Shown here: piece after piece, positions 21,128-39,881 of the stretch
Numbering within the stretch: position 1 is the stretch's first letter
How the letters are laid out: every line of letters starts with the position of its first letter
NCBI RefSeq assembly: GCF_024502345.1
Contig: NZ_JALDNN010000001.1
Strand: one strand, 5' to 3'
Length of the DNA: 64,000 nucleotides
Source of the DNA: Escherichia coli
GTDB lineage: Bacteria > Pseudomonadota > Gammaproteobacteria > Enterobacterales > Enterobacteriaceae
The notes under the pieces: generated by a model
Databases searched by the model: none
What the model was told of the DNA's origin: nothing
Seen by the model: the letters and a program-made list of their open reading frames with translations, nothing else
Translations under genes and position numbers: made by a program

Positions 21128-24100
21128 CTAGAGGTGCCCTCCAACCCCTTTAAATTTTTCGATAAACGCCCCAATTTTCTGGAATACGGTCTGCTTTTTC
21201 GTTTTGTACTGAGGATTCAGCGGACTGAGCTTTGGTAGCGTCTCATTTAGCTCAGTGCCATTTTCGGTAGCATACTCCCGTTTGAGTGATGTGCGGATAT
21301 AGCGCCTTGCAGCCTCTTCATTGAGGTTTTCTTCCTTAATCAACGCCTCTGCTTCCCGTTGCTGTTCACGCTGAGCATAGGTAAAGAATGCATCAATGAT
21401 ACTGGCCTTGTCCGGCATGTCATCAAGGTTAGTTTGCTGAATAAAGTCAACAATCAGACCTTCTTTGGCACGGTTGCCCAGACTTGAGCGGATTAAGCGT
21501 CTGACCTCTTCAGTCAGGGCTTCTTTACCTTTTTTCTCTCTGTTGTGGTCGAAAATCAGGCCAAGGATGTAATCCAGGTTAATTTCCTGCGACTTCAGCA
21601 GGTCAATTTCAAACACCACGTCATCCCAGTCTGTGGTTGATTTATCCCTGTCGTTTGATGCTTTTTCGCGTCGCTGCCAGTCCCGGATATCATTGTATGC
21701 TGAGCGATAGTCCTGAACTTTACGTTCTGCCGGGAGACGAATGGTTTGTAATTCAGCAAATTTTTCATCATCCACATAGTGCTCTGCTTTAAAGGTTTCT
21801 ACCGCTTCCGGGTCACTAATATCAACCTTCTGCAGGGCTTTCAGCGTGGCAAATTCATCATAGTTTTGCAGGATGTTTTCTGCCCGCAGATATTCACCAA
21901 ACAGTTTGACGAAGGCTTTTTTCTCTTTTTCACTGTCGATACTGGCAGGGTCAGGGAAGCGCTGCTCCAGCTCCGAAACAACAGCCATAAAACCTCGTTT
22001 AGCCTCACCGGTTGCCGCATCGGTAAAGCCCTGCATGTACTCTTCGTAGCTTTTTTCCAGCACCACATTCTTGGTGTTTTTGTCGCCAAAAAGTGTGATG
22101 GCATCAATGGTCGGACGCTCCAGGTCCCTGAAAGTCACGATATTGCCGAAGGTTTTGGTTGCATCATAGATACGGTTGGTGCGTGAGAATGCCTGCATCA
22201 GACCGTGATAACGCAGGTTTTTGTCAACGAACAGAGTATTGAGCGTCGGGGCATCAAAGCCGGTTAAGAACATTCCCACCACGATGAGAAGGTCGATATC
22301 CTGATTTTTCACTCGTTGAGCTAAATCGCGGTAGTAGTTCTGGAAGCCGTTACTGTCGGTACTGAAATTGGTTTTAAAGTGGTTGTTATAGTCATCAATG
22401 GCTGAATCCAGGAATTCCTTTGCGCTGCTGTTCATTGCGCTGGTATCAAAGCTTTCGTCAGTAATATCACCAATGGCGCTTTGCTCTTCATTAGCAGCAA
22501 AAGAGAAGATGGTTGCCACACGAAGACGTTTATAGCTGCCAGATTTCTTCTCAGCTTCTTCCTGTAGCATTTTAAATGTCGTGTAATAAGCTTTTGCCGC
22601 GTCCACGCTGCTCACTGCTAACATGGCATTGAAGCCTTTTGCTCCCGGGAAGGTACGATGCGTTTTCTGGCGGAAGTTATTGAGAATGTATTGCGTTATT
22701 TCCTGGATACGCAGTGGGTGCAGAAAGGCCTGCTGGTTTTCAGCCGCGCTGAGTTTTTTCTCGTCTGTTTCCGTTTCAAGGGACTTAAACTGTGGGCGGA
22801 CATCGTTATAGTCCACCTTAAACTTCAGCACTTTTTCATCACGAATCGCATCAGTAATTACGTAAGAATGTAATTCACGCCCGAAGACGCTGGCGGTGGT
22901 TTCTGCCCCCAGTGCATTTTCCGGGAAAATAGGCGTACCGGTAAAACCAAACTGATAAAAGCGTCTGAATTTCTTTTTGAGGTTTTTCTGGGCCTCACCA
23001 AACTGGCTGCGGTGACACTCATCAAAGATAAACACCACCTGCTGCTGATAGACGGGCAGGTCAGCTTCGGCTTTCATCAGGTTATTGAGTTTCTGAATGG
23101 TTGTGACGATAATTTTGTTATCGTCCTTATCCAGGTTTCTTCTGAGGCCAGCTGTATTATCCGAACCATTCACACTGTCCGGAGAGAAGCGCTGATACTC
23201 CTTCATGGTCTGGTAATCGAGGTCTTTCCTGTCGACCACGAAGAAGACTTTATCAATAAAGTCCAGCTCGGTTGCCAGTCGTGCGGCCTTAAAACTGGTC
23301 AGGGTTTTTCCTGACCCTGTGGTATGCCAGATAAACCCGCCGCTTTCGGGTTTTGACCAGTTCTTCGCTTTAAAAGAGCTGTTGATTTTCCAGAGAATGC
23401 GCTCAGTGGCCGCTATCTGATAGGGACGCATGACCAGCAGTGTCTGGCTGCTGTCAAACACGCTGTAATTAAACAGAACATTCAGCAGGGTATGCTTCTG
23501 GAAGAAAGTGGCGGTAAAGTCCTTCAGGTCCTTTATCAGGGTGTTATCCGATTTCGCCCAGTTCATGGTGAAATCAAAGCTGTTTTTATCCCGCTTAGTG
23601 GTACTGGCAAAGTACCGGGTATCAGTCCCGTTGGAAATCACGAAGAGTTGCAGGTATTTAAACAGGGAGTTATCGCTGTTAAAGCTTTCCTTGCTGTAAC
23701 GGTGTATCTGGTTAAAGGCTTCACGAATCGCCACGCCGCGCTTTTTGAGTTCGATTTGCACCAGTGGCAGGCCGTTGACCAGAATGGTGACGTCATAACG
23801 GTTAGCGTGTGAGCCGGTCTGCTCAAACTGCTGAATGACCTGCACCTTATTGCGCAGCAGGTTCTTTTTATCTATCAGATAGATGTTTTCCAGACGACCA
23901 TCATCAAACGTAAAATCACAGATATAGTCGATATGGATTTTACGGGTTTTGTCCAGGCTGCTGTCACTGGGGCTGTCCAGATACTGCTCTGCGAAGCGCC
24001 GCCATTCACTTTCGTTAAACTCCACACCATTAAGACGCTGAAGCTGGTCCCGCACATTCGCCAGCATCGCAGTCGGTGACTTAACGGAGATAAACTCATA

Positions 24101-24244
24101 CCCCTGATTAAGAAGGTCCTGAATCAGCTCCCGCTCAAGGTCCAATTCGCTCTGGTAGCTGTCACCGGTATCCATAACTTTTGTGTATTTATCAAGGACG
24201 ATAAAGTTATTGGATTCAGCAATGGTGTGTGTCTGTTGTGTCAT
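21128..24244 (-). CDS. hsdR: type I restriction enzyme R subunit (HsdR), type IC-like size
   Basis: 1038 aa; Walker [18 protein letters not shown]-box helicase motifs (FDECHRSQ), N-terminal nuclease region; RBS present. Confidence 0.9.
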
Positions 24245-24360
24245 GGAGCATCCTGTGCGTCATCTGGCAAAGTCCGGAAGGGTATCAGAAGCATCTTCCG
24301 GCATTCATAAAACCTGATACCGGACGGGTGAGAACAAACCCTGCCGGTATCAATGGTCCG

Positions 24361-25569
24361 TCAGTTGCTAGTTGTTTCGTGCTTCGGGAAGCTGAACAAC
24401 AAGTCGCGATAGTACTCGTACTGCTTCTGGCGTAGTTCTATTTCACGGGGTAAGCCTTCGGTGATAGAGCTTGTTAATGTGTCGAATTTATCGAGTATGG
24501 TGACAATCCTAACTTGCTCTGACTTTGAAGGGATTGGTAGTAAAAGGTCCTCCATTTGTTTTTTGGATACGGCAGGAATACCTCCTTTCTGCTGAATACC
24601 CGTTAATTTGGTCTCGGATTGTTTCAGATAGTAATAGACATACATCCAATGCAACTGTTCAGTGCTTCTAACAGAGATGGAATAGCAACTATTGCCTGCC
24701 CAGTAAGGAGTGGAACTCTTATTTACAAATCCTGCATTTGCTCCACGCGCACTCACAATAATCTTATCGCCATCATTGTTGAAGTCTTCGTAGTAACCTG
24801 TAGGAGTCCGCCCTCCGTTGTAGACCGGATAATCTGCGTCAGGATTCTGCTTGTCCTTACGGACAAACGCACCAATTGTAATTATTGCTACTTCCCCCAG
24901 ACTCTTCCACTCAACACTCCCCCCCTCAAAACTCAGCAATTGGTTACGATAGTAATTGTACTGCTTTTTACGCATGGTAAGCTCAGCTGTAAGCTCAGCT
25001 GTAAGAGCAGTAAATTTATCCAGAATTCGGACGATTTCAGACTGGATGGTCAGAGACTTTTCAGGATTTTCCGGGCAAGGAATGGGGGCTTTATATGCTG
25101 AAATCATTTGAAGATTCAGCCCACCACGCCCGCTGTTCCCAGATGATATCTGACGTAGATTATCATACTGGGTTTCCAAAAAGTGGAAAATATAATCTGA
25201 ATTGATCTTCCGCTCATCAAATGTAATGGCTGCAAGTGATTGATTGGTGGTTAATTTAATGCGGGTTCTTGCTACTTTACCACGAGTTTTACCCTGACCT
25301 GCTAATGCCATAACAATGGAATTTTCAGGAACAAATTTAGCACTTGAGTTATTTAATCCATCCTCAGTAATGAATGTCTCAGTTTCTTTGATGGTTTTTA
25401 AATTTACTTCACCTGAACTCATCCAGGGGATAGTTCCATGCTCCCAATATTCTGTTTTTTTAGTATCAGGGGTGCCACCAGAATAAATTTTTTTTGCAAC
25501 CTTACCGAGAGGGAACCACTCAACCTCAATCCCCTCCAGCAGTTTTTCCAGATAATTTAGCTTACTCAT
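24361..25569 (-). CDS. hsdS: type I restriction-modification specificity subunit (HsdS)
   Basis: 402 aa with two target-recognition domains separated by a central conserved region containing TAELTAEL; start overlaps the hsdM stop (ATGA). Confidence 0.85.
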
Positions 25570-27122
25570 GCCTGCGCCTCGTAGCCTTCAATTTCTGCCA
25601 CAATCGCATCAATGTCTTTGCGTAACTGGTCGATTTTGCTGACCGTGGTTTTAAGCTCAACATTCAGTTCGGTGATATCGACGATTTCACGGGTATCTTT
25701 TGCTTCGACGTAGCTACTGACAGACAGATTGTAGTCATTACCAGCAACAGTCTCTAATGGCACCGTTTTCGCCAGATGGTCAGTATCTGCCTTACTGTTG
25801 AACACATCCATAATCTGCTTAATATGACCATCAGTCAGGATATTGTTATTGGTTTCTTTCTTAAACAACCCGCTGGCGTCAATAAACTGAACGCGGGTAT
25901 CTGTTTTGTGCTTGGACAACACTAGTATGTTAACGGCAATGGTGGTGCCGAAGAACAGATTTGGTGCCAGAGAAATCACCGTTTCAACATAGTTGTTGTC
26001 GACCAGGTACTGGCGGATTTTCTGCTCTGCTCCGCCACGGTAGAAAATACCGGGGAAGCAAACTATTGCTGCACGCCCTTTAGCTGACAGGTAGTTTAGT
26101 GCATGTAGCACAAACGCAAAGTCAGCTTTTGATTTCGGGGCCAGTACGCCAGCAGGAGCAAAGCGCTCATCGTTAATCAGGGTCGGATCATCACTACCAA
26201 TCCACTTAACCGAGTACGGTGGGTTAGAAACAATCGCATCGAACGGTTTTTCATCGCCAAAGTGAGGCTCAGTCAGGGTATTCCCCAACCTGATATCAAA
26301 CTTATCGTAGTTGATGTTGTGCAGGAACATATTCATACGCGCCAGGTTAAACGTCGTATGATTTATCTCTTGTCCGAAAAAACCTTCTTCAATGATATGA
26401 TTATCAAAGTGCTTCTTCGCCTGAAGCAGCAGTGAGCCAGAGCCTGCGGCAGGGTCATAGATTTTGTTGACGTGAGTCTGACCATGCATCGCAAGCTGAG
26501 CAATCAGCTTAGAGACGTGCTGTGGTGTGAAGAACTCCCCGCCAGACTTACCGGCATTCGCCGCATAGTTTGAAATCAGGAACTCGTAGGCATCACCGAA
26601 AAGGTCAATCTGGTGCTCATTAAAATCCCCGAGCTTTAGCCCCTCAACGCCTTTCAGAACGGCAGCGAGGCGGCTGTTTTTGTCTTTGACGGTGTTACCC
26701 AGTCGATTGCTGGTCGTATCGAAATCGGCAAACAGACCTTTGATGTCGGCCTCAGACGGATAGCCGTAGGCAGAGCTTTCAATAGCGACGAAGATACTGT
26801 TTAAATCAGCATTCAGCCTGTCGTTGGTGTTCGCTTTAGCGGCAACGTTGCAGAACAGCTGGCTCGGATAGATGAAATAGCCTTTAGTCCTGATGGCATC
26901 ATCTTTGATGTCATCGGTAATGATGCTGTCATCAAGTGCTGCATAATGTATGCTCTCATCCCCTGCTTCCATGTAGCTGGAAAAATTCTCACTGATGAAG
27001 CGGTAGAAAAGGGCACCGAGTACATACTGTTTAAAATCCCATCCATCTACTGAGCCCCTGACATCATTGGCAATGGCCCAGATTTGACGGTGTAGTTCTG
27101 CACGTTGTTGAAGACTGGTCAT
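25566..27122 (-). CDS. hsdM: type I restriction-modification N6-adenine DNA methyltransferase (HsdM)
   Basis: 518 aa; catalytic NPPY motif ([10 protein letters not shown]) and AdoMet-binding motif. Confidence 0.9.
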
Positions 27123-28146: not shown

Positions 28147-28482
28147 TTATACTGCTGTTATGCATCTAAAAAGCTGACGGCTTTGTTTATGTTTTATGTT
28201 CGGATAGATTCTCATCGCAGCTGCACAGAGAGGTGAAACCTGCCTTGCTATATTTTTACCAAAGTTAACAAGAAGACCATGCTTGATCTTTTCACTATTC
28301 GTTCTGACTTTGATGACAAAGCTGAACTGATATACGATTACCTCAATGAGGTCATTGCCAAATGTTATACTGGCAGCGTTGTTTATTTCATGTTCATAAT
28401 TCCTCAGGTCAGTGTTAAGTCTTGCTGTTGCATCTACAAGTGCGTATTCTTTATCGATAATCATAACTTTCTCACTTATCAT
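28147..28482 (-). CDS. hypothetical protein (up to 111 aa), AT-rich orphan
   Basis: ORF 40 bp downstream of the HTH-WYL regulator on the same strand; start uncertain. Confidence 0.3.
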   Translation of the reverse strand: MISEKVMIIDKEYALVDATARLNTDLRNYEHEINNAASITFGNDLIEVIVYQFSFVIKVRTNSEKIKHGLLVNFGKNIARQVSPLCAAAMRIYPNIKHKQSRQLFRCITAV

Positions 28483-28522: not shown

Positions 28523-29236
28523 TTAATTGCGATTATTCGGTTGTTTTGCCCCGTAATGCATTATCTGATGAATAATGTTCATGTGGGGTAAGGCTTCCAT
28601 AAAGTCAGACTGTTCAATCAGCGAAATGAGTGTGTTATCGATCTCAAACGTTGTATCCGGTAATACCTCAACCAGCCTGATTCGGGACAGGGAAATAACG
28701 AACACGCCCGATGACGTACATCCGGCAAGAAACCACTCCGCATGGCTGCAAAGCAGACGGTAGGGATGAACGGTATGGCTGACGTTTTCGTCGGTTCTGA
28801 TACGCACCTGGGTCTGGTTAAGTATGGCGAGCGTCAGTCTGCTGAAATCACCGAAAAGGGTGGGTTTCTGGCGCGGCTCCGGTAGCATAATCCTGTATGG
28901 CGAGGGACGTTCCCCGTCAAGCATCAGGCTCAGTAGTTTGGCATCCATCGCGGGTAACAGACGGTCAAGATGCAGCAACCTCGCCAGTATCTTCATATCC
29001 CGTTCCGTGCGGCGACGAAAGTAATGTGAGGCAAGCTGATACACGCCGTTGCTCTGTTCAATATCAAGGTAGGTCAGACGGACGTTGAAATCCCGTCGCA
29101 GCGTTCGCGTCGTCACTCCAAATTCTTCTGCCAGCGTCCCGATATGCAGCTTTTCACCCTGAAACAAACGGCTCAGGATGATGGAAAGGCGGGTTGCCAG
29201 TCTGTCATGTTCGTTTTCTTGTGTTATCAGCGTCAT
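28523..29236 (-). CDS. HTH-WYL domain transcriptional regulator
   Basis: N-terminal HTH LAEEFGVTTRTLRRDF; central WYL-type segment HPYRLLCSHAEWFLAGCTSSGVFVISLSRIRLVEV. Confidence 0.7.
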   Translation of the reverse strand: MTLITQENEHDRLATRLSIILSRLFQGEKLHIGTLAEEFGVTTRTLRRDFNVRLTYLDIEQSNGVYQLASHYFRRRTERDMKILARLLHLDRLLPAMDAKLLSLMLDGERPSPYRIMLPEPRQKPTLFGDFSRLTLAILNQTQVRIRTDENVSHTVHPYRLLCSHAEWFLAGCTSSGVFVISLSRIRLVEVLPDTTFEIDNTLISLIEQSDFMEALPHMNIIHQIMHYGAKQPNNRN

Positions 29237-29338: not shown

Positions 29339-30088
29339 CTAAACGTCAGTATTCTCAGGTGAATAAAGATGCTTCTGGCGCATGTAGGCAATAAAAATGC
29401 AGGATGGTAGCGTCACCCGGTATGCGGGACCGGCTAAATCAATCAGCAGCCAGAGAGAACTGAGCACCCAGCCCACGGGACCGGCAAAAGCGCCCATGGT
29501 ACGCGTCAGCATGGCATTTCCTGCAACGGTCAGCCCTCTGCCTAACAGGGCTTTCGCCACACCATTTGTGACAACAAGTGCCATCTGATAGGCCGCAAAC
29601 CCGGATGTTTTAATCCCCGCCTGGATTGCCATGGTCAGCAGCTCCGGCGTGGGATTGCTGTAGCCTGTCTGCAATTCTTCCGCCACGGTCTTTAGCTGAG
29701 CGGGTGTCATCTTCTCAAGGCTTTTCTCCAGGATCTTCATCAGCAGATTCATTTCAATGGTTTCAACACTGGATTTGCTGTTGTAGTTCACCTTCATTTT
29801 ATCGCAGGCATCGGTAAGAATTTCCCGGTACAGCACCCCTTTACCCCAGCGGAGCAGCGTGGCAAAGCTGTTCGCCCCAAACGTCTGAACTTCGGCGGCA
29901 ATGGCATCCCAGTAGCGCGGGTGGTTGGGCTTGTGTTTTTTATACTGAGGATCATAGGTCAGCGTTTCCGTGATGCGTGCCAGTCCGTCTTTCGGATCGC
30001 AGATAAGCACAGAAACCAGTAAATCCAGATCGTCACGATGACAGTGGCGCAGAAACTCAAGGTCGGGGTCGTGTCGGTAGGTAGCCAT
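29339..30088 (-). CDS. hypothetical protein (249 aa) with C-terminal Gly-rich hydrophobic segment
   Basis: ...GAFAGPVGWVLSSLWLLIDLAGPAYRVTLPSC...; possibly YaaW/UPF0174-like (from memory, unverified). Confidence 0.5.
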   Translation of the reverse strand: MATYRHDPDLEFLRHCHRDDLDLLVSVLICDPKDGLARITETLTYDPQYKKHKPNHPRYWDAIAAEVQTFGANSFATLLRWGKGVLYREILTDACDKMKVNYNSKSSVETIEMNLLMKILEKSLEKMTPAQLKTVAEELQTGYSNPTPELLTMAIQAGIKTSGFAAYQMALVVTNGVAKALLGRGLTVAGNAMLTRTMGAFAGPVGWVLSSLWLLIDLAGPAYRVTLPSCIFIAYMRQKHLYSPENTDV

Positions 30089-30231
30089 ATTTCACCTCAT
30101 TGCAGATATTGGACCTGACAGTTTAAGGAAGCACCCGGACAGGGTTTGTCCGCCTGAAAAACAAAAAAGTAAAAAAAAACCTACCCGAAAGCAGGTTTCT
30201 GTTCACCGGATGGAGGTATAACGCGTCGGGA

Positions 30232-30618
30232 TTACTTTCCGCGCCATTCCTTTTCCACTTTATCCGCAAAGGCATCGCACTGCCGGGCATATTCCGGGTT
30301 ATACAGAAGCTCCGACTGCGAAAGCTGCATGGCGGTCATGCTGCCGTTACGGGCGTTCGATTCGAGCCAGGTTCTGCCATAGGTTTGGTTCATCACCTGA
30401 AGTACCCTGTTGAATACCGGTCCGTTGAAGCGGGCATTGAGATTAACGCCTTTTACCTGAAGGCCGCTGTCACTGGTCTGGGTCAGGCGGGTGGAGTACA
30501 TCGCGCAGAAGGTCGAATTGGTAATCATCTGAGCGTCAGCCTGCTCGTCGGCGAACGCGCTGTGGCTGAAGGCGGAAAGCAGAATTGCGGCGGTTAACAG
30601 TTTTAAAGTTTTCATCAT
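30232..30618 (-). CDS. secreted/periplasmic hypothetical protein (128 aa)
   Basis: Signal peptide MMKTLKLLTAAILLSAFSHSAFA; two Cys residues in the mature part. Confidence 0.55.
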   Translation of the reverse strand: MMKTLKLLTAAILLSAFSHSAFADEQADAQMITNSTFCAMYSTRLTQTSDSGLQVKGVNLNARFNGPVFNRVLQVMNQTYGRTWLESNARNGSMTAMQLSQSELLYNPEYARQCDAFADKVEKEWRGK

Positions 30619-30692
30619 GTTCCCTTATGGATTGAAAAGCGGAGACAGCCTGCCATACGGGGTGGTCAGGAGATGTCCGGCAGAGAAAAAAG

Positions 30693-30932
30693 TCAGGGTT
30701 TCAGCGAGGGAGCCAGTCGCCAGCGGTGAGGGCCAGCGGATTCCAGCACAAAGGCCAGTTGAGCGAGGTCCCGTCTTGCTGTGCGGGGAGAGACGTCAAA
30801 CTGCCGGATGATGTAGCGAACAGATATTGTCTGACCGTAAAACAGGGCCATGGTCAGCCGGATAAGCCGTTCTCCCTGTCCGGTGACACGTTGCCTGCAA
30901 CGGCTGGCTTTCATCGTTGCCATACGCGCCAT
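30693..30932 (-). CDS. small HTH protein (79 aa)
   Basis: Motif FDVSPRTARRDLAQL resembles the HTH of DeoR/WYL-type regulators, but the protein has no C-terminal domain; overlaps the upstream gene by 22 bp. Confidence 0.45.
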   Translation of the reverse strand: MARMATMKASRCRQRVTGQGERLIRLTMALFYGQTISVRYIIRQFDVSPRTARRDLAQLAFVLESAGPHRWRLAPSLKP

Positions 30933-31375
30933 CGGTCCCCTTTCTGAAAAGAATCGAGGTGTCTGGCAAGCCAGATATCAGGGCACGAATCGCCGGTAAC
31001 GCAGCGGGCAGTAAACCGGTGGCAGTTAAAGTCGAGCAGGCTATAAGGATAGCGCTGACCCACTGCCGCCTTTGCCCGTTCAGCGGCCTGTGCACAACCC
31101 TGAGGCGTCAAATCCATACAGTCGGTATACACCGAGATAGCGGAGTTCCAGCCATCGAGCCGGTCAAGAAACCCTTTGGCCTTACTTTTGATAACGGTTC
31201 CATCGCCATCAAGATGAACAATATCGCCGTTACCCACATAGATACCGCTGTGTGCGGCAAGGCCAAAAAGCAGTTCGCACTGCACGATACCACCGTAAGC
31301 CGGTTCATCGACGCAGGAGAGAATGCAGTTATCGATAAATGAATCCACGAAGTTCAGCAGCAGAAGCCGGTACAT
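30911..31375 (-). CDS. LRAT/NlpC-P60-like papain-fold protein (putative acyltransferase/phospholipase)
   Basis: Track ORF 30911-31546 trimmed to MYRLLLLNF...; motifs HSGIYVGNGDIVH (catalytic His) and YSLLDFNCHRFTARCVTG (NCEHF-like nucleophile Cys), as in LRAT/PLAAT family. Confidence 0.55.
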   Translation of the reverse strand: MYRLLLLNFVDSFIDNCILSCVDEPAYGGIVQCELLFGLAAHSGIYVGNGDIVHLDGDGTVIKSKAKGFLDRLDGWNSAISVYTDCMDLTPQGCAQAAERAKAAVGQRYPYSLLDFNCHRFTARCVTGDSCPDIWLARHLDSFQKGDRWRVWQR

Positions 31376-31433
31376 AACATTCAGTTCCTTACTACGGGGG
31401 AGAGGGGGGATGCGGGGGAAACGTTGTGAACAC

Positions 31434-31862
31434 TCAGCTTTGCCACAACGTACGGACCGTGAAAACCCCCATATCGTGGTAAGCCATAAAGTTACTTTCC
31501 CACAGCGACCAGAACTCACGGGCGTCGACATGAGAGATATCGCCACAACGGGAAAGCCACGTGTATTGTTGCGTCCAGCTCACATCGACATCTTTTTCAA
31601 GCTCAGGCCATGGATGCCCTGCATAGTGAAAATCGGTGACGTAATCGAGCTGCCAGTCTTCTCCGGCAGGGATGAGGCGTATTTCGACCGGATGCCAGCC
31701 GCCCTTTTCCGGTGAGTATTCAGGGTCACGAAAGTTAATGGTTAATCCGGTGATGGGGTGACGATGAGGCGGTTTTTGCGCGAGGATATCCAGAAGCAGT
31801 TGGGTGAACGACCGGGAGAGCGGCAGCACATAGCCGCCCTGCAATATTACGGGTGATGACAT
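31434..31862 (-). CDS. hypothetical protein (142 aa)
   Basis: ORF in the co-directional array; no confident family assignment. Confidence 0.45.
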   Translation of the reverse strand: MSSPVILQGGYVLPLSRSFTQLLLDILAQKPPHRHPITGLTINFRDPEYSPEKGGWHPVEIRLIPAGEDWQLDYVTDFHYAGHPWPELEKDVDVSWTQQYTWLSRCGDISHVDAREFWSLWESNFMAYHDMGVFTVRTLWQS

Positions 31863-31908
31863 AGTGAATTTCCTGATTTTTGGTTAACAGAACACAGAAA
31901 AAGCGGGG

Positions 31909-32340
31909 TTAGTCCTGGCTGAGCGTAGCAAGCTGCGTCATACGATGCTGCCAGTCGGCATAGCAGCGGTGCATAAAGAGTCTGCTGCTGTCCGCTTCGA
32001 TAAGGCAGATATCCGGACTTCTGAGCACAGCAGCAAGAAACCCGGCGTTGTTGGTACTGCCCTGACCAAACAGTGGGCGAAATACACGGGACGGGAAGCT
32101 GTCCTGCTGCTGTTCCAGAATGGCGTGAATCGCATCAAGCGCTATCCATTCACGGGAGAACAGGCCCCCTTCGCCATTGGCGGTTAAGCGCAGGGCAAGA
32201 CTCCCGGTTTCACCCTCTTTACCCAGCTCATACGTCAGCAGTCCTTTACTGTGGGGGCTGATTTTCTCGGCTTCCCCCATGTAGAACACGGTATAGCTTT
32301 CGGTGACGGCGGCTTCGGTAGCGATTTTTTTCTTACTCAT
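31909..32340 (-). CDS. hypothetical protein (143 aa)
   Basis: Start overlaps the upstream gene's stop by 8 bp, suggesting translational coupling. Confidence 0.45.
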   Translation of the reverse strand: MSKKKIATEAAVTESYTVFYMGEAEKISPHSKGLLTYELGKEGETGSLALRLTANGEGGLFSREWIALDAIHAILEQQQDSFPSRVFRPLFGQGSTNNAGFLAAVLRSPDICLIEADSSRLFMHRCYADWQHRMTQLATLSQD

Positions 32341-32713
32341 GGTTCAGCGCCTCAATCAGGTTCCGGAGTTGAGTGATAACGGTCGTGTCCGGGAACACCA
32401 GATAGATACCCTGTCCGTTATCGCAGACGATACCGAGCAGGAGATACCAGCCATCATCAAGTGCGGTGACGTATTCCGGGTTAGCCAGTGCCACTGCCAG
32501 CAGCGGGTCTTCGGGGAGGGTGTCATCGTGGTTGAGATGCCAGAGCAGGGTTCCCGTTTCGTTCCAGAAGGTGGTAAACAGGTCGATATCATCGACAGGG
32601 CCAAGGATTTCATTGCTGAGGGCCGCCAGTGCGGAGGCGGGCAGGTTGAGAAGGGGAAGACTGGTGGGGGTCGTGAGTTTAAACATGATTATCTCCATAA
32701 ATGATTGATTCAT
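32333..32713 (-). CDS. hypothetical acidic protein (116-126 aa)
   Basis: First gene of the minus-strand array; downstream of an AT-rich divergent promoter region (32714-33204). Confidence 0.45.
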   Translation of the reverse strand: MNQSFMEIIMFKLTTPTSLPLLNLPASALAALSNEILGPVDDIDLFTTFWNETGTLLWHLNHDDTLPEDPLLAVALANPEYVTALDDGWYLLLGIVCDNGQGIYLVFPDTTVITQLRNLIEALNHE

Positions 32714-33204: not shown

Positions 33205-34515
33205 ATGAAACCCGATAGTTCTTTAAACCAAATAACGCAGACAATGAAACGGAATGATGTTGATTCTGTGGATAGTCGCTTTTTTGAGTCAGCGCAAAAC
33301 ATGAAAACCAGCGTTGACGTTGAAGATTGCTGCGTTGAAGTGATGGTTCGACATCACAGCCCAAAGAATCAAAGAGAGGCATTCACTAAAGCTTTTTTTG
33401 ATGAGTGTAAAATCCGTGCAGTACAAACTGGCCGGACTATCGAAGCCAGCGATACAAAATGTACCGGGCTTAAGGCTATATTCCACTCATCCGGACGCAT
33501 TAAGTTTATTGTCCGCAAAAGTATTCGCGGAAAGAATGTTTACGTTGCAGTAGGAAGTTACCCTGAATTTTCCATTAATAACGCAAGGGAACATGCCTTT
33601 AAAATAATTCAGGAGCTTAAGGCTTCCGTTGAGACTTATGGTGAGCGTTTTCTTACTCACAGTAAAATGACGTTTAATGAGCTTGTGGATGAGTATGAGA
33701 AAAGCGTACTCAGCACGGGCGTTAAGCGTTCAGCTAACACCGATCTTTCTAAGATCCGTAAATACCTGCGCCCTCTTCTCGGTGCCAAAAAGCTGGCAGG
33801 TATGACGGAGGCAGATATTCTGAGCTATCTGCATAATCTCGATCTCAAGCCTGCCACCCGCAACCGCCATCTGGCGCTCATTAAAGCGGTGTTTACCAGG
33901 GCAATACGCATGGGATACATCAGCCGCTCTCCGGCGCTTTATATCAAAGCGCTGCCTGAAGTGACGTCAGATCGCCGTGCCATGGATGACTCCCAGCTTC
34001 AGCGCTGGATGGACGTCTGTGAGCGCTGGCGTAATGGTAAACCCGATCATGAAGCCCTTGCTCTTCTCATGTTCCTTGCCCTGACGGGGCTGCGTCTGGG
34101 GGAAACCCGTCACCTTCGTCTTGAAGATGTGGACTGGAGCCGCAAGGTTATCACCCTTCGCCATACCAAAAACGGCAAACTACGCCGTGTACCGGTATGT
34201 GATAAGGCTTTCGTTCTTCTGACAGAACAGCGTCAGCATCTGGGTGATGAAGGCTGGGTATTTCCGGGCAAGGGAACCGACAATCCGGTTGCTGAGCCGC
34301 GTCGCCTGCAAAAACGACTTTGTGAGGCTGCGGGTATTCCACCGTTCACCATCCATGAGATGCGTCATACCTTTGCGACAAAGCTCATTGAGAGCGGGGC
34401 CGACATTCACACCGTCAAAGACTTATTGGGTCACAGCACTATCAAAGTAACGGAGCTTTACTTGCACGCTTCCCCGGCGCGTTACCACGAAGTCGTTAAC
34501 CGGGCGATGGGGTAA
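33205..34515 (+). CDS. tyrosine recombinase/integrase (P4-like arm-binding N-terminus)
   Basis: 436-aa ORF; C-terminal catalytic region ...HEMRHTFATKLIESGADIHTVKDLLGHSTIKVTELYLH (HxxR...Y). Confidence 0.75.
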   Translation: MKPDSSLNQITQTMKRNDVDSVDSRFFESAQNMKTSVDVEDCCVEVMVRHHSPKNQREAFTKAFFDECKIRAVQTGRTIEASDTKCTGLKAIFHSSGRIKFIVRKSIRGKNVYVAVGSYPEFSINNAREHAFKIIQELKASVETYGERFLTHSKMTFNELVDEYEKSVLSTGVKRSANTDLSKIRKYLRPLLGAKKLAGMTEADILSYLHNLDLKPATRNRHLALIKAVFTRAIRMGYISRSPALYIKALPEVTSDRRAMDDSQLQRWMDVCERWRNGKPDHEALALLMFLALTGLRLGETRHLRLEDVDWSRKVITLRHTKNGKLRRVPVCDKAFVLLTEQRQHLGDEGWVFPGKGTDNPVAEPRRLQKRLCEAAGIPPFTIHEMRHTFATKLIESGADIHTVKDLLGHSTIKVTELYLHASPARYHEVVNRAMG

Positions 34516-34584: not shown

Positions 34585-36513
34585 TTGATGGTAATACACA
34601 TGAATAAAAAAGTGACAACTAATGTTCCTAAGGTTTCCGGGATTAAGCGTATTCGCGCTTTTGCTGACCGCGATAAAAATTTCAACAAAATGTCGGAAGC
34701 AATTATCAGGCGTGCTGAAAACACTGAGGTCGGTGAAGATGATATCGCTTCACTCGGTATTGGTGATGGGCTGCCACGGCATTATGTGAATACGGCTAAT
34801 GGCCTTTTCTACATCGGTGGACAGAAACCTGTGCAGGTTTGCACCACGCCAGTTGTGCCTGTCGCCCTGTTTTGTGGAAAAGATAAGGAGTCCGGTCTTG
34901 GGATCAGCCTGATGACCGGTAACGGGCTGGGTAAGTATGTTAAGGCCCTGGTACGCTTTGAGGATATTGTTCAGAGCGGTGCTCAGGTAGTAGGCAAACT
35001 GGCAGATCGTGGATTTTGTGTTGGCTCCTCTCCACAGCAGTTTGCCCTTTTTGACCGTTTTCTTCAGCGCTGCCGGAGTTTACCGCTGCCTGTCTATCTG
35101 ATGGCAGATGCGATGGGATTCGTTTCGGAGGATATGGCCTTTTTACATGGTCATGAGCCCGTTGTGACCTCTCTGACCGGGTTTGATTATCTACTGCCGG
35201 GATTCCGCGTGCGTCCCGGACTGCACAAAGGTGGGGCCCTGGAGGAGTGGATTAACCTCATCCGGGAAAATGTCCATGGCTGGGCGCAGACCTTTGCACT
35301 GAGTGCGTCCTTTGCTTCGATGCTTCTGGTTCCTGCCGGTATGGATGTGGGCATGTTTCATTTTCACGGCGTATCCACCACCGGTAAAACGCTTCTCCTG
35401 ATGCTGGCTGCATCGGTCCATGGTGATGGCAGCGAGCCGGGTAGTGGGGGGAATGTAAATATTATTCGCTGGAATACCACGCCTAACGCGATGGAGCGCC
35501 TTCTCGCTGACTATTCCGGTCTGGTCGCCTGCGTCGATGAACTGGGTGCGAGTAATCATAAGCAACTTTCCTCACTGCTTTACAACATTACGTCAGGTAC
35601 GGCAAAAGAGCGCCTGAACCGTGGCCTGACGGCAGATGAGCCGTTTAAATGGCGCATGTTTATTCTCTCCACCGGTGAGATGTCAATCTCCGAAAAGCTG
35701 GCTGAACAGAAAGCCGTGTTACAGGGAGGGCAGGAGCACAGGGCCATCAGTATGGAACTGTTGCCTGAGGATGCTCAAAAACCGGATGAACCGGTATCAG
35801 AAACACGTGCCCGTGCAGATGCACTGAAGACGGGGCTGGCAGAGGCTTATGGTCATGCCGGGCCTGCATTTATCGGCAAACTGTTATCCGGGAAAAATAC
35901 GGCTGGCGGTCTTCGCACCTACGCAGAGTTTTCATCCTGGCTCCAGGAACAGACAGATGATTGCTGTAACGCACTGGAAGAGGCCCTGAGGGATGAGGGG
36001 CGTGATATTACCCGCGTTCAGCGGCGCGGACTGAAAAGATTTGCGCTGGTATGGCTGGCAGGAGAGAAGGCGCTGAAATATGGCCTTTTACCTTTCGAAA
36101 GCGATGCGGTGGCTGAATCCGTTATGTCCGCTGCACGACGCTGGCTGGATGATAACCAGAATCAGTATAACCCGGTGCGTAACATGCTGGAGGAGCTTCA
36201 GCTGACGCTGGTGACAAAAAGCAGCAGGCACTTTATCACCCTGCGTGACGAACATGCCCGATGCCCGGGAGATATGTGGGGATTCGTCCATTACAAAACC
36301 GGCGACTTCCTGATTTATGAATCGGTGTTTGAAAAGCTCTGTTCTGAAAAGGGACTTAAGACCGTTGATGTGGCCAGACCGTTAGAGCGTTCCGGTTATC
36401 TGCTTGGCGAAAGTGCCGGACACTATAAAAAAAGAGCGCTGAAGACGATGGCGCAGTCTTACTACCAGGTCAAAAAAGCGTTTCTGAAATGCAATGTGAT
36501 GACCGAATTTTAA
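34585..36513 (+). CDS. DUF927-like P-loop NTPase, putative replication/primase-helicase protein
   Basis: 642 aa; Walker A GVSTTGKT, Walker B-like VACVDELG; positioned after the integrase as in satellite-like elements. Confidence 0.55.
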   Translation: MMVIHMNKKVTTNVPKVSGIKRIRAFADRDKNFNKMSEAIIRRAENTEVGEDDIASLGIGDGLPRHYVNTANGLFYIGGQKPVQVCTTPVVPVALFCGKDKESGLGISLMTGNGLGKYVKALVRFEDIVQSGAQVVGKLADRGFCVGSSPQQFALFDRFLQRCRSLPLPVYLMADAMGFVSEDMAFLHGHEPVVTSLTGFDYLLPGFRVRPGLHKGGALEEWINLIRENVHGWAQTFALSASFASMLLVPAGMDVGMFHFHGVSTTGKTLLLMLAASVHGDGSEPGSGGNVNIIRWNTTPNAMERLLADYSGLVACVDELGASNHKQLSSLLYNITSGTAKERLNRGLTADEPFKWRMFILSTGEMSISEKLAEQKAVLQGGQEHRAISMELLPEDAQKPDEPVSETRARADALKTGLAEAYGHAGPAFIGKLLSGKNTAGGLRTYAEFSSWLQEQTDDCCNALEEALRDEGRDITRVQRRGLKRFALVWLAGEKALKYGLLPFESDAVAESVMSAARRWLDDNQNQYNPVRNMLEELQLTLVTKSSRHFITLRDEHARCPGDMWGFVHYKTGDFLIYESVFEKLCSEKGLKTVDVARPLERSGYLLGESAGHYKKRALKTMAQSYYQVKKAFLKCNVMTEF

Positions 36514-36973: not shown

Positions 36974-38158
36974 TCACAAGGACGGTAGCTGAGCCGTTAT
37001 CCTTTCCGCCAGTAACTGACTGGTGTTCTGTAAGCGCTGAGGATGAAGATGCGCATACCGTTGTGAAGACTGACTGCTGCGGTGCCCCAGTTGAGCCTGA
37101 ACGTCATACAGTGTTCCGCCGTAGGACACGATGAGGGCGGCAACCGAATGGCGGCAGGTATGAATACACACTTCTTTGTCGAAAATTCCCGCCCGACGAA
37201 CGATACGCTGAAAGGCTTTAACGGGGTTATTCAGCGGCATTCCTTGTTTTTTACCGATAAACAACCACGGATTTCCACGCTGTGTTGGCAGTGTTCTGAT
37301 TACGTCCATCGCCAGTGAATTAAGATGAACAATCCGTCCATAGCCATTCTTGGTTTCCGGGAGCCATAGGGTGCGTTTAACCGGGTCAACATGCTCCCAC
37401 TTAGCCAGACGCAGTTCATCACGACGAAGGCCGGTCAGTAACAGCAGTTTGACATAGCGGGCAGCTACGGGGCTGGTATCGTTATCGGCGGAGAGAAAAA
37501 TACGACGAATTTCGTCCTCGGTAAAATAACGCTGTCGGGCGTTGTTCTCCCTGAGTAGCTGTACCACCCTTGCCGGATGAACAGAGGTCATGCTTTGCCT
37601 TCCGGCCCATGTAAAGACGGCTTTAATGAGTACGATGACACGGTTACAGGTAGCCGCTGACAGGGAAGTACTTAACGTCTGCTGAAGGCGCAGAATGCTC
37701 GCTGGTGTGATATCGCTCAGCAGCCTCTGACCAATGGCGGGACGGATATGATCGCGGTAGCGCTGAACATCCTTTCCCCAACTGCGTTTAGCGGATTTTG
37801 CCCATGGCAGATAATGCTGATTAAAGAGTTCATCGAACGTCAGCTCCATTCTCTTGTTTTCACGCTCCTGCTTAGGGTCAGTGCCGGTGGCAAGGGAACG
37901 TTTGTGTTCTATGGCAATCTGACGAGCAAGATTGACGTCCACTTCAGGCCAGTGACCAATGGCGATGGCGCGTTTTCGTCCATGATAAAGGTAGCGTAGC
38001 AAAAACTTTTTACGACCTTCTCTTCTGCTGACCAGACACTTGAGGCCGGAAATCTCAGTGTCGCTGTATTCGGCATCGGTACTGCGTGCATCGGATGTGT
38101 TAGGGGGCAGGGATTTAATGAGCTGATTAGTAAAACGGAAGCGTTTGGGGGTGGACAT
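36974..38158 (-). CDS. tyrosine integrase (P4-type), the one nearest the intact tRNA-Phe
   Basis: 394 aa; DUF4102-like N-terminus (...EISGLKCLVSRREGRKKFLLRYLYHGRKRAIAIGHWPEVDVNLAR...) and C-terminal catalytic region HTCRHSVA...LGHRSSQSSQRYAHL. Confidence 0.8.
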   Translation of the reverse strand: MSTPKRFRFTNQLIKSLPPNTSDARSTDAEYSDTEISGLKCLVSRREGRKKFLLRYLYHGRKRAIAIGHWPEVDVNLARQIAIEHKRSLATGTDPKQERENKRMELTFDELFNQHYLPWAKSAKRSWGKDVQRYRDHIRPAIGQRLLSDITPASILRLQQTLSTSLSAATCNRVIVLIKAVFTWAGRQSMTSVHPARVVQLLRENNARQRYFTEDEIRRIFLSADNDTSPVAARYVKLLLLTGLRRDELRLAKWEHVDPVKRTLWLPETKNGYGRIVHLNSLAMDVIRTLPTQRGNPWLFIGKKQGMPLNNPVKAFQRIVRRAGIFDKEVCIHTCRHSVAALIVSYGGTLYDVQAQLGHRSSQSSQRYAHLHPQRLQNTSQLLAERITAQLPSL

Positions 38159-39091: not shown

Positions 39092-39805
39092 GATGTTACC
39101 TTTAATTCATATTCGGTCGAGAGCGTCAGGAAACTATCCTAATATACCTTTTTTCTACACCAGTATTTGGATCAATTTTCATCCCTTTGGCCTGCTTCTT
39201 GTTGATTAACTCTCAGCGATGTTTGAAATAGGCCATCAGTGGTCAGAATCATTTTTTACTTCCACTTTTTGCTCAGATTTGACCCTAAGGTCTAAGTTCC
39301 AATACGTTTCGCTCAATTACTATCACCCCTGATAAATTATTCTATGATGACGTGGAGGGCGGGGGATTCAGGCAATGTTAAGAAATGAAAGGTTTAAATG
39401 CGAATATTACAGGTGGAGGAGGTGGTGGATACCCCCGACTGACAAGGGGAGTTGATGGCGCTGAGTTCACCCCCTTGCCTGAAGAGGAGTCTCCCCGGTC
39501 TTCCCCCGGGGGGGATGGCAGGTAATTTGTTGTTAAATAAAGTAAATTATGAAATCCCCCATTTCCCCCGTATTCTCTGCTTCATTATGAATAATCTTAG
39601 AGAAAGGAACCGTAAAGGACCGTAGAAAGACCGTAGCTGTGAGGTGAGGGAAGGCACATCAGAGGATGTTGAGGTGTCTAAAAGTAACGAACATCTGCAA
39701 AAATGGTGAAAAATCCAGCAAGAAAATAACGTGTTGCAACGACCAGAAATCTACCGTAGCTAAGAAAGGAAAAAGCCCCGCTTTTCAGCGAGGCCTTATG
39801 AATAT

Positions 39806-39881
39806 TGGTGCCCGGACTCGGAATCGAACCAAGGACACGGGGATTTTCAATCCCCTGCTCTACCGACTGAGCTATCCGGGC
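39806..39881 (-). tRNA. pheV: tRNA-Phe (GAA anticodon)
   Basis: Revcomp reads gcccggatagctcagtcggtagagcaggggattgaaaatccccgtgtccttggttcgattccgagtccgggcacca, a canonical 76-nt tRNA-Phe with CCA end; next to yqgA-speC. Confidence 0.95.

What the first reader, a model, noticed from the sequence alone, without database searches (positions are those of the whole stretch)
30232..32713. Compact co-directional array of six small unknown genes including an LRAT/NlpC-P60-like enzyme and a mini-HTH protein: candidate undescribed system
Six minus-strand genes (32713 down to 30232) are tightly packed, with 8-bp and 22-bp overlaps and 46-74 bp gaps. They comprise three uncharacterised proteins, a papain-fold LRAT-like protein carrying His (HSGIYVGNGDIVH) and Cys (NCHRF) catalytic signatures, a 79-aa HTH-only protein and a signal-peptide protein. 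LRAT/PLAAT-type enzymes are phospholipid acyltransferases or phospholipases; inside an island next to an R-M system such an enzyme could be a membrane-targeting effector of a defense or toxin-immunity module. None of the partners is confidently assignable.
Basis: partly seen in the sequence, partly recalled or inferred. Interest (0 to 1): 0.75.

Follow-up and report, generated by a model that had tools for sequence, protein, structure and literature searches.

The report
Pipolin-like island core array with LRAT
The six small genes are real and conserved, but they are the backbone gene array of a 19.6-kb mobile island at a tRNA-Phe gene in E. coli, shared with elements called pipolins, with a lipid-enzyme (LRAT-like) gene inserted into it; they are not a self-contained new defence system, and what they do is still unknown.

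Summary
There are six co-directional minus-strand genes with 8-bp and 22-bp overlaps and 46-, 58- and 74-bp gaps. All are under purifying selection (dN/dS 0.09-0.26). The array ends at an intrinsic terminator just before jukA. The LRAT-like protein keeps a His-His-Cys triad that aligns with human PLAAT enzymes.

The genes do not behave as one six-part system. They lie in a 19,564-bp element bounded by perfect 50-bp tRNA-Phe repeats. Gene order is IntB, DUF927 primase-helicase, IntA, the six genes, JukA, a WYL regulator, then restriction-modification cargo. g1, g2 and DUF2787 match the published pipolin core ("DUF2787 and 2 orphan proteins"). A bona fide E. coli pipolin has the same order (Int, g1, g2, DUF2787, mini-HTH, small secreted protein) but no LRAT. 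In relatives, DUF2787, LRAT, the mini-HTH and g6 are each lost or gained independently.

New points:
- LRAT-family genes of two subfamilies sit beside or near DUF2787 on mobile elements of four gammaproteobacterial orders.
- Distant LRAT homologues sit beside type III and type IV CRISPR accessory genes, Hma and helicase-type defence genes.
- g2 is predicted to contain a winged-helix domain.

Function is untested. The finding is of moderate interest, as a variant of a known element type.

The parts
32333..32713 (-). g1: 117-126-aa orphan protein (pipolin-core orphan 1; phrog_32947)
   Evidence: ORF. PHROG hit 5e-14. Homologues lie next to an integrase in every related locus, with 27-89% identity in the g1 alignment (39% by tblastn to the pipolin L010). 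dN/dS 0.13-0.28.
31909..32340 (-). g2: 143-aa orphan protein (pipolin-core orphan 2; phrog_28971), predicted N-terminal beta-sheet plus C-terminal winged-helix domain
31434..31862 (-). g3: DUF2787 protein (VC0508 fold)
30911..31375 (-). g4: 154-aa LRAT/PLAAT-like Cys-His-His enzyme (H42, H54, C118)
   Evidence: Pfam PF04970 at 6.9e-9. A profile of the family hits PLAAT2/3/4 structures with the triad aligned. H42 and N117-C118-H119 are invariant over 46 homologues, and H54 is invariant among the 12 closest. 581 cluster representatives at E<=1e-3.
30693..30932 (-). g5: 79-aa HTH-only protein, resembles the N-terminal HTH of WYL regulators; overlaps g4 by 22 bp
   Evidence: HTH_DeoR/HTH_11. PADLOC WYL model, N-terminal part only, 1.8e-6. 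Local similarity to the neighbouring WYL regulator. An unannotated homologue (41%) is present in the pipolin L010.
30232..30618 (-). g6: 128-aa secreted protein (Sec signal peptide, 2 Cys); narrow family restricted to Enterobacterales
   Evidence: ORF. Homologues are all at least 59% identical and only ever occur in this full context. No family, PDB or PADLOC hit.
30165..30200 (-). intrinsic terminator-like hairpin plus U-run that closes the six-gene unit before jukA
   Evidence: Terminator scan, sequence, RNA fold of -17.2 kcal/mol with z = -3.5.
29339..30088 (-). JukA/YaaW (DUF3944) homologue, directly downstream, same strand
   Evidence: PADLOC JukA 1.5e-72. Pfam DUF3944.
28523..29236 (-). 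HTH-WYL transcriptional regulator (a pipolin-core type gene)
   Evidence: PADLOC WYL 4e-15. Pfam WYL and HTH. 32% identical to the pipolin WYL gene.
28147..28482 (-). orf111: backbone orphan that directly follows the LRAT gene in relatives lacking g5-g6-JukA-WYL
   Evidence: tblastn synteny in L004, L005 and L008.
33205..34515 (+). IntA tyrosine recombinase, divergent from g1
   Evidence: phrog_1 integrase 1.1e-66. Conserved next to g1 in L002, L004, L009 and L011-L020.
34585..36513 (+). DUF927 primase/helicase-type replication protein (present in the element where pipolins carry piPolB)
   Evidence: phrog_8841 DNA primase/helicase 1e-41. Annotated DUF927 in the E. coli relative.
36974..38158 (-). 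IntB tyrosine recombinase at the tRNA end; 46% identical to the integrase that flanks g1 in the pipolin
39805..39854 (.). attR: 50-bp direct repeat within tRNA-Phe (39806-39881, minus strand)
20241..20290 (.). attL: identical 50-bp direct repeat; the element is 19,564 bp
21128..27122 (-). cargo: type I restriction-modification genes hsdR-hsdS-hsdM
   Evidence: NCBIfam hsdR 2.4e-220 and hsdM 3.3e-192.

Best explanation
The six genes form one transcription unit. It diverges from intA and is closed by an intrinsic terminator upstream of jukA. It makes up most of the conserved backbone of a 19.6-kb integrative element in the pheV tRNA-Phe gene of E. coli. That element is a piPolB-less relative of the pipolins and carries a DUF927 primase-helicase.

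The unit is a mosaic, not a six-part machine.
(i) g1, g2 (predicted winged-helix DNA binder) and DUF2787 are the integrase-proximal core genes shared with true pipolins.
(ii) A mini-HTH protein followed by a small secreted protein is also part of that ancestral array.
(iii) An LRAT/PLAAT-type Cys-His-His enzyme gene has been inserted between DUF2787 and the mini-HTH.

Inferred mechanism. The ancestral array serves the element itself: two of its five products are predicted DNA-binding proteins, which suggests control of the divergent integrase, replication and cargo genes. The LRAT-like protein is a catalytically competent cytoplasmic thiol acyl-hydrolase or acyl-transferase that forms a Cys118 thioester and acts on a membrane (phospho)lipid, as its eukaryotic relatives do. 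I take it to be an accessory conflict-related effector that travels with DUF2787 on mobile elements.

Shown: the anatomy, conservation, synteny, modular gain and loss, and catalytic-residue alignment. Inferred: lipid substrate, DNA binding, and any role in phage or mobile-element conflict.
For: Element boundaries: perfect 50-bp repeats of the tRNA-Phe 3' part at 20241 and 39805.

Backbone versus cargo. The order IntB-DUF927-IntA-g1..g6-JukA-WYL-orf111 is constant in Buttiauxella, Pseudocitrobacter, Enterobacter, Kluyvera, Hafnia and metagenome relatives, while the genes beyond orf111 differ. In E. coli the g1-to-WYL block is at least 80% covered in 109-112 genomes. The integrase/replicase module reaches that in 59 genomes and the cargo in none.

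Pipolin link. PMC11551731 defines the gammaproteobacterial pipolin core as piPolB, IntSXT, IntP2, DUF2787 and 2 orphans, plus WYL. A piPolB-carrying E. coli element (L010) has Int (46% to IntB), g1 (39%), g2 (53%), DUF2787 (45%), a mini-HTH (41%) and a 130-aa signal-peptide protein, with no LRAT.

Modularity. DUF2787 is absent in Citrobacter L002. g5, g6, JukA and WYL are absent in Tatumella L004 and in L008, where LRAT abuts orf111. LRAT and g5 occur without g6 or JukA in L019 and L020. Synonymous divergence is mosaic against L060: g1-g3 0.3-0.4, g4-g5 0.05-0.10, g6-JukA-WYL 1.0-1.75.

Catalysis. H42, H54 and C118 align with His23, His35 and Cys113 of PLAAT2/3 and are conserved.

g2: winged-helix model.

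Terminator after g6.

LRAT-DUF2787 linkage. The two are adjacent or nearly adjacent in Enterobacterales, Thalassotalea (L034), a Pseudoalteromonas plasmid (L055) and an Aeromonas plasmid (L062). The Aeromonas LRAT belongs to a different, NCEHF-type subfamily.
Confidence: 0.6

Rival explanations
1. One reading: the six genes together form one undescribed defence or toxin-immunity system. The LRAT-like enzyme would be a membrane-targeting effector, and the other five proteins would sense, regulate or neutralise it.
For: The genes are tightly packed and co-directional, with coupled overlaps. The array is conserved as a block in 112 E. coli genomes and several genera. It lies in an island with R-M and next to jukA. 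Distant LRAT homologues sit next to CARF effectors, Hma, Csf4 and UvrD/NERD helicases (PMC12825302).
Against: Components are lost and gained independently. The same array without LRAT exists in pipolins. No partner is conserved across 29 distant LRAT loci. There are no PADLOC hits. The array is in the backbone, not in the variable cargo slot.
Confidence: 0.12
2. Establishment or anti-defence module. g1-g3 and LRAT would belong to the class of small-gene arrays (RadC, AlpA, Gp2-like, GTPase, YeeU) that integrative and conjugative elements express on entering a new host to blunt host responses. LRAT and DUF2787 would act on a host factor.
For: DUF2787, alone or with LRAT, lies in such arrays on plasmids: Aeromonas p1 has AlpA, Gp2, then three hypothetical genes, LRAT-DUF2787, then further genes including RadC and YeeU; Proteus pHFK418-NDM has RadC-DUF2787x2-AlpA-GTPase, one hypothetical gene, then Gp2; Pseudoalteromonas has RadC-DUF2787x2-LRAT. 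The pipolin also carries a GTPase family gene near the array. There is a weak local DUF2787/PsiB motif match at the same position in proteins of the same length.
Confidence: 0.15
3. g6, JukA and the WYL regulator form a three-gene Juk-type defence unit, with the secreted g6 protein as the lineage-specific partner or effector. On this reading only g1-g5 belong to the pipolin-type array.
For: g6 homologues were found only in loci that also carry jukA. g6, jukA and WYL share a high-dS block against L060. The Juk preprint reports variable partners, and uncharacterised proteins such as DUF2541 (E. coli YaaI-like by my own recollection, not tested here) in putative operons with jukA.
Against: A good intrinsic terminator lies between g6 and jukA. 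g6 is exported, while JukA acts in the cytoplasm according to the preprint. The pipolin has a positional analogue of g6 without jukA. g6 does not match the JukB models.
Confidence: 0.15
4. g4-g5 is a reversed type II toxin-antitoxin pair. The LRAT enzyme would be the toxin and the translationally coupled HTH protein the antitoxin and autorepressor.
For: There is a 22-bp overlap, with the toxin gene first as in higBA, mqsRA and hicAB (established knowledge). g4 and g5 share one recombination block. They co-occur in L002, L019, L020, L059 and L060.
Against: LRAT occurs without g5 in L004, L007, L008, L034 and all distant loci. A g5-like gene occurs without LRAT in pipolins L010 and L057.
Confidence: 0.06

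Closest known systems
Gammaproteobacterial pipolins (piPolB-encoding integrative elements; PMC11551731)
   Same: tRNA-integrated and flanked by direct repeats. Two tyrosine recombinases. The integrase-proximal array g1-g2-DUF2787-miniHTH-secreted protein, a WYL regulator, and a bimodular layout with a conserved core and a variable defence cargo (type I R-M). Protein identities to an E. coli pipolin are 39-53% for g1-g3 and 46% for IntB.
   Different: No piPolB; a DUF927 primase/helicase is present instead. Integrated in tRNA-Phe rather than tRNA-Leu. An extra integrase (IntA) lies next to g1. The LRAT gene is inserted in the array. jukA is part of the backbone. The pipolin authors noted possible 'piPolB-less, pipolin-like islands' but did not characterise them.
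Eukaryotic LRAT/PLAAT (HRASLS) phospholipid acyltransferases and phospholipases A1/2 (PDB 4dpz, 4fa0, 4dot)
   Same: Pfam PF04970. Permuted papain-like order with His-His before Cys. The triad aligns (H42/H54/C118 with His23/His35/Cys113), with the same 12-residue His-His spacing and an NCxxF motif.
   Different: NCHRF instead of NCEHF. No C-terminal membrane anchor. About 20-25% identity only. Bacterial and carried on a mobile element. Substrate unknown.
VC0508 (DUF2787) of Vibrio cholerae VSP-II island (PDB 2w56, 2v1l)
   Different: No function is known for VC0508 either. I could not examine the VSP-II context with these tools.
Juk (JukA/JukB) anti-jumbo-phage system (bioRxiv 10.1101/2022.09.17.508391)
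   Same: The gene directly downstream of the array is a strong JukA match and is followed by a WYL regulator. The preprint reports this association as frequent.
   Different: No JukB. None of the six genes matches a Juk component. A terminator separates the array from jukA.
RadC/AlpA/Gp2/GTPase/YeeU small-gene arrays of enterobacterial and Aeromonas islands and plasmids
   Same: Long co-directional runs of small unknown genes near an integrase or AlpA, which include DUF2787 and sometimes an LRAT-family gene.
   Different: The window's array has no RadC, AlpA, Gp2 or YeeU homologue. These arrays have themselves not been assigned a function.

Membership tests
Pipolin (sensu PMC11551731) | Encodes a primer-independent family-B DNA polymerase (piPolB) | tested here: not met
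   Every ORF of at least 90 aa inside the 19.6-kb element is accounted for, and none is of piPolB size or type. The replication gene is a DUF927 primase/helicase.
Pipolin (sensu PMC11551731) | Core genes DUF2787 plus two orphans next to an SXT-type integrase, and a WYL regulator | tested here: met
   g1, g2 and g3 are 39%, 53% and 45% identical to the genes flanking the integrase in a piPolB-carrying E. coli element. WYL is 32% identical and IntB 46%.
Pipolin (sensu PMC11551731) | Integrative element flanked by direct repeats at a tRNA gene | tested here: met
   50-bp perfect repeats at 20241-20290 and 39805-39854, the latter inside tRNA-Phe.
LRAT/PLAAT family (Pfam PF04970, NlpC/P60 superfamily) | Significant match to the family profile | tested here: met
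   PF04970 at 6.9e-9. A profile of homologues hits PLAAT2/3/4 structures at 1.6e-6 to 3.5e-4.
LRAT/PLAAT family (Pfam PF04970, NlpC/P60 superfamily) | Catalytic Cys in an NCxxF motif preceded by two His residues (permuted Cys-His-His triad) | tested here: met
   H42, H54 and C118 align with the PLAAT2 HWAIYVG…VVHL…NCEHF motifs. H42 and N117-C118-H119 are invariant in 46 homologues, and H54 is invariant in the 12 closest.
LRAT/PLAAT family (Pfam PF04970, NlpC/P60 superfamily) | Membrane anchor (C-terminal TM in PLAATs; N- and C-terminal in LRAT) | tested here: not met
   No hydrophobic C-terminus. Only a borderline hydrophobic N-terminal 19-mer (Kyte-Doolittle 1.65). 18 of 126 bacterial homologues have a clear N-terminal hydrophobic segment.
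LRAT/PLAAT family (Pfam PF04970, NlpC/P60 superfamily) | Acyl-enzyme chemistry on phospholipids | not testable with these tools
   Needs a purified protein assay.
Known anti-phage defence systems (PADLOC-DB v2) | A component matches a defence-system HMM | tested here: not met
   No hit for g1, g2, g3, g4 or g6. g5 matches only the HTH part of a WYL model. Only the neighbouring JukA and WYL genes match.
Juk system | JukA sensor together with a JukB effector | tested here: not met
   JukA is present at 29339-30088 (1.5e-72). No JukB match among the eight proteins scanned.
Type II toxin-antitoxin pair (g4-g5) | Obligate co-occurrence of toxin and cognate antitoxin | tested here: not met
   LRAT occurs without g5 in L004, L007, L008, L034 and distant loci. 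A g5-like gene occurs without LRAT in L010 and L057.
PsiB (SOS inhibitor) as a relative of DUF2787 | Shared fold | tested here: not met

The most novel reading that the evidence does not exclude
Probability: 0.15. Interest if true: 0.7.

Novelty: new variant of a known kind. Interest (0 to 1): 0.4.

Why it matters
Pipolin-type islands are recognised reservoirs of defence genes, yet none of their conserved core genes apart from the integrases and piPolB has a known role. This locus shows three things.
- The core array survives when piPolB is replaced by a different replicase, so the array, not the polymerase, may be the more stable signature of this element family in E. coli (about 2% of complete genomes).
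- One 'orphan' is probably a winged-helix DNA binder.
- A catalytically intact LRAT/PLAAT-type enzyme has been recruited into the array and recurs beside DUF2787 and beside CRISPR-associated and other defence genes.

If the LRAT enzyme proves to act on membrane lipids in phage or mobile-element conflicts, it would extend a eukaryotic lipid-enzyme family, which picornaviruses also exploit, to bacterial immunity. If not, the locus remains an ordinary island backbone.

Tried and rejected
1. PsiB-like function for DUF2787. Weak hits to the same 27 residues in three searches were not supported by the fold comparison. Rejected as homology and kept only as a motif resemblance.
2. g6 as a homologue of the pipolin's 130-aa secreted protein. 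There is no similarity beyond the signal peptide by BLASTP or hhalign. It is a positional analogue only.
3. A universal partner gene for LRAT. Clustering the neighbours of 35 loci (L019-L053) found none outside the Int-g1-g2-DUF2787 context, apart from genus-level synteny in alphaproteobacterial metagenome-assembled genomes.
4. Informative domain fusions in long LRAT homologues. Pfam found only LRAT/NlpC_P60. The extensions are Gly/Ala-rich, coiled-coil or, by eye, Sel1-like.
5. A phage origin. LRAT has no match in 50,697 phage records and DUF2787 has only two IMG/VR loci, despite PHROG families existing for g1-g3.
6. Structured RNAs. Rfam found only the tRNA in 20-40 kb.
7. Solved-structure sequence searches for g1, g2 and g6 found nothing significant.
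8. Two related-loci runs failed because the alignments were too diverse and were repeated with narrower alignments.
9. The simple sigma-70 scan found no promoter upstream of g1, so the operon's promoter is not located.
Full report
OBSERVATION. For g4 I use the ATG at MYRLLL, which RefSeq homologues also use; the mechanical GTG ORF runs to 31546. The overlaps are 8 bp (g1/g2) and 22 bp (g4/g5), and the gaps are 46, 58 and 74 bp. Pfam assigns DUF2787 to g3 (1.8e-32), LRAT PF04970 to g4 (6.9e-9) and HTH_DeoR/HTH_11 to g5. g1, g2 and g3 match PHROG families of unknown function, and g6 matches nothing. Pairwise dN/dS against four relatives that are 34-98% identical at the protein level is 0.09-0.26 for every one of the six, so these are real protein-coding genes. 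A hairpin followed by a U-run lies about 30 bp after the g6 stop codon and before jukA. It folds at -17.2 kcal/mol with z = -3.5.

THE ELEMENT AROUND IT. The window is E. coli; its speC flank is 99.8% identical to E. coli genomes. A tRNA-Phe gene lies at 39806-39881. Its 3' 50 bp are repeated perfectly at 20241-20290. The repeats delimit a 19,564-bp element with this order, starting from the tRNA: orf195, IntB (36974-38158), a fragment of an integrase arm-binding domain, a DUF927 protein that matches phage primase/helicase families (34585-36513), IntA (33205-34515), the six genes, a strong JukA/YaaW match (29339-30088; PADLOC 1.5e-72), an HTH-WYL regulator (28523-29236), orf111, and a type I restriction-modification operon (21128-27122). 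No ORF of piPolB size is present.

BACKBONE, NOT CARGO. The stretch from g1 to WYL is found at 94-99% identity and at least 80% coverage in 109-112 of 5,426 complete E. coli genomes. The integrase/replicase side reaches that coverage in only 59 genomes, and the cargo side in none. In other genera (Buttiauxella, Pseudocitrobacter, Enterobacter, Kluyvera, Citrobacter, Hafnia and metagenomes) the order IntB-DUF927-IntA-g1…WYL-orf111 is kept. The DUF927 allele varies from 38 to 95% identity, and the genes beyond orf111 are unrelated from locus to locus. The six genes therefore belong to the conserved core of an island family whose variable end carries defence genes.

RELATION TO PIPOLINS. The only substantial literature on DUF2787 is the pipolin study PMC11551731. 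It defines the gammaproteobacterial pipolin core as piPolB, an SXT-type and a P2-type integrase, DUF2787 and two orphan proteins, with a WYL gene. It also mentions possible piPolB-less pipolin-like islands. I tested this directly. A weak DNA hit led to an E. coli element at tRNA-Leu that encodes a family-B polymerase (L010). Next to its integrase (46% identical to IntB) lie homologues of g1 (39%), g2 (53%) and DUF2787 (45%). These are followed by an unannotated but intact mini-HTH ORF (41% to g5) and a 130-aa protein with a signal peptide. That last protein shows no detectable similarity to g6 and is a positional analogue only. An LRAT gene is absent there and in a second pipolin-like locus, L057. 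So five of the six positions of the array are ancestral to this element family, and the LRAT gene occupies a slot between DUF2787 and the mini-HTH.

THE SIX GENES ARE NOT OBLIGATE PARTNERS.
- Citrobacter L002 lacks DUF2787.
- Tatumella L004 and metagenome L008 lack g5, g6, JukA and WYL, and there the LRAT gene directly abuts an orf111 homologue.
- Limnobaculum and Cedecea (L019, L020) have g1-g2-DUF2787-LRAT-g5 but no g6 or JukA.
- L007 and Thalassotalea L034 have extra genes inside the array.
- g6 has only close homologues (at least 59% identity) and occurs only where jukA is present.
- Synonymous divergence against Hafnia L060 is mosaic: g1-g3 0.3-0.4, g4-g5 0.05-0.10, g6-JukA-WYL 1.0-1.75. 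This indicates recombination between sub-modules.

This pattern argues against a single six-component machine and against an obligate LRAT/HTH toxin-antitoxin pair.

THE LRAT-LIKE PROTEIN. An exhaustive search found 581 cluster representatives at E<=1e-3. In an alignment of 46 homologues, H42 and N117-C118-H119 are invariant; H54 is invariant among the 12 closest. A profile of the family matches the solved PLAAT2, PLAAT3 and PLAAT4 structures (best 1.6e-6). In the alignment, HSGIYVG…IVHL…NCHRF lies on HWAIYVG…VVHL…NCEHF, so H42, H54 and C118 fall on the catalytic His23, His35 and Cys113. PMC10318531 lists PF04970 among the Cys-His-His papain-like families that act at the membrane-water interface. 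The protein lacks the PLAAT C-terminal anchor. Some bacterial homologues carry Gly/Ala-rich hydrophobic N-termini (18 of 126), and no informative fused domains were found.

CONTEXT OF LRAT HOMOLOGUES ELSEWHERE. Among 43 genome loci, the Int-g1-g2-DUF2787 context is confined to Enterobacterales and Thalassotalea. The others share no common neighbour. Several nevertheless lie directly beside defence genes:
- two CARF/Csx1-Csm6 genes in Alishewanella and Arsukibacterium,
- HmaA/HmaB in a Lachnospiraceae genome,
- a NERD/UvrD (GajB-like) helicase in a Cloacimonadota genome,
- the type IV CRISPR helicase Csf4 in Pusillimonas,
- a DEAD-box helicase on an Acinetobacter plasmid.

Independently, PMC12825302 describes an LRAT-like hydrolase next to CARF effectors in a Psychrobacter type III-B cluster. 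Other loci are housekeeping, for example between guaB and guaA. LRAT has no phage match. On plasmids, LRAT-family genes again sit beside or near DUF2787. A Pseudoalteromonas plasmid has RadC-DUF2787-DUF2787, an integrase fragment, then LRAT. An Aeromonas plasmid has LRAT-DUF2787 inside a long array that also includes AlpA, Gp2, RadC and YeeU. The Aeromonas enzyme belongs to a different, NCEHF-type subfamily (hhalign 95.6%, 24% identity). Close linkage of two LRAT subfamilies with DUF2787 in four orders is the most interesting new observation here. I found no paper that links them.

MECHANISM. Shown: the anatomy of the element, the synteny with pipolins, independent gain and loss of components, an intact Cys-His-His triad, a terminator-bounded unit, and the recurrent LRAT-DUF2787 and LRAT-defence-gene neighbourhoods. 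Inferred: the ancestral array (g1, g2, DUF2787, mini-HTH, secreted protein) works for the element itself, with g2 and g5 as DNA-binding regulators acting on the long AT-rich region shared with intA. The LRAT enzyme would be an accessory, conflict-related effector that forms a Cys118 acyl-thioester and acts on a membrane lipid, possibly together with DUF2787. I give this composite reading about 0.6. Most of that weight rests on the structural and evolutionary part and little on the biochemistry. Rivals: a dedicated six-gene defence or toxin-immunity system (0.12), an establishment or anti-defence array (0.15), g6 as the partner of JukA (0.15), and an LRAT/HTH toxin-antitoxin pair (0.06).

COMPARISON AND NOVELTY. 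The element fails the defining test for a pipolin because it has no piPolB, but it meets the tests for the pipolin core array and for tRNA integration with direct repeats. It is a piPolB-less, DUF927-type variant of that family. g4 meets the sequence tests for LRAT/PLAAT membership except the membrane anchor; its activity is untested. None of the six genes belongs to a known defence family, and the adjacent jukA lacks a JukB partner. I rate the locus a new variant of a known kind. Interest is moderate (0.4). It is not the undescribed multi-gene system that was proposed. It does add a concrete, testable link between LRAT-type enzymes, DUF2787 and bacterial conflict loci, and a first structural hint for one pipolin orphan.

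Noticed in passing
window 28523-30088: A strong JukA/YaaW homologue (PADLOC JukA 1.5e-72) is followed by an HTH-WYL regulator, and no JukB is present. The pair is part of the conserved backbone of this island family, not of its variable cargo. The Juk preprint reports that some JukA proteins protect on their own.
   Followed up: partly
window 20241-20290 and 39805-39854: Perfect 50-bp direct repeats of the 3' part of tRNA-Phe delimit a 19,564-bp integrative element. About 2% of complete E. coli genomes carry the same backbone.
   Followed up: yes
window 10298-20240: Directly left of attL lies a second integrase gene (18782-20044, P4-type). Further left are an IS30 transposase (15658-16809), a methyl-accepting chemotaxis protein fragment (17617-18225), an AIDA/MisL-type autotransporter (11486-14536) and an IS5 transposase (10298-11278). 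This looks like a second, decayed island in tandem. No further att repeat was found.
   Followed up: partly
window about 36563-36919: By transfer from the E. coli relative L001, a fragment encoding only an integrase arm-DNA-binding domain lies between the DUF927 gene and IntB. This suggests a third, truncated integrase and past accretion or recombination of elements. DUF927 alleles in otherwise near-identical islands are only 38-47% identical (L012, L013).
   Followed up: no
window 33010-33038: A perfect 10-bp inverted repeat, CCTGAAAGTG-N9-CACTTTCAGG, lies in the 490-bp AT-rich region between intA and g1. It is a candidate operator for one of the HTH proteins.
   Followed up: no
window 1-10316: The left end of the window has 58-62% G+C and ends with a porphobilinogen synthase (hemB) gene. 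The ORF sizes before it (255, 275 and 283 aa) look like tauBCD. In E. coli K-12 this region is far from pheV (from memory), so the window may span a rearrangement junction mediated by IS elements or islands.
   Followed up: no
L026 and L030 at about 5450-8440; L023 5-2704: Distant LRAT homologues lie immediately downstream of two CARF (Csx1/Csm6-type) genes in Alishewanella and Arsukibacterium, and immediately after a type IV CRISPR Csf4/DinG helicase in Pusillimonas. A published Psychrobacter type III-B cluster shows the same neighbour (PMC12825302).
   Followed up: partly
L062 5402-6426; L055 4220-6474; L061 5028-6411: Plasmids of Aeromonas, Pseudoalteromonas and Proteus carry DUF2787, often duplicated, next to RadC. 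Two of the three also have an LRAT-family gene beside or one gene fragment away from DUF2787. The Aeromonas and Proteus copies lie in arrays with AlpA and Gp2-like genes, plus a GTPase in Proteus and YeeU in Aeromonas.
   Followed up: partly
window 31434-31862 (g3) versus F plasmid PsiB (L063 9552-9986): DUF2787 and PsiB are the same length and share a short motif at the same position (YSxExGGxHPVEIRL versus EYGSEFGGFFPVQVRF; hhalign probability 56%). The predicted DUF2787 fold does not retrieve PsiB.
   Followed up: yes
window 20568-20912: A 114-aa ORF at the attL end of the element is in the same position as the '5-fold beta-flower protein' annotated in the E. coli relative L001. I did not examine it.
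   Followed up: no
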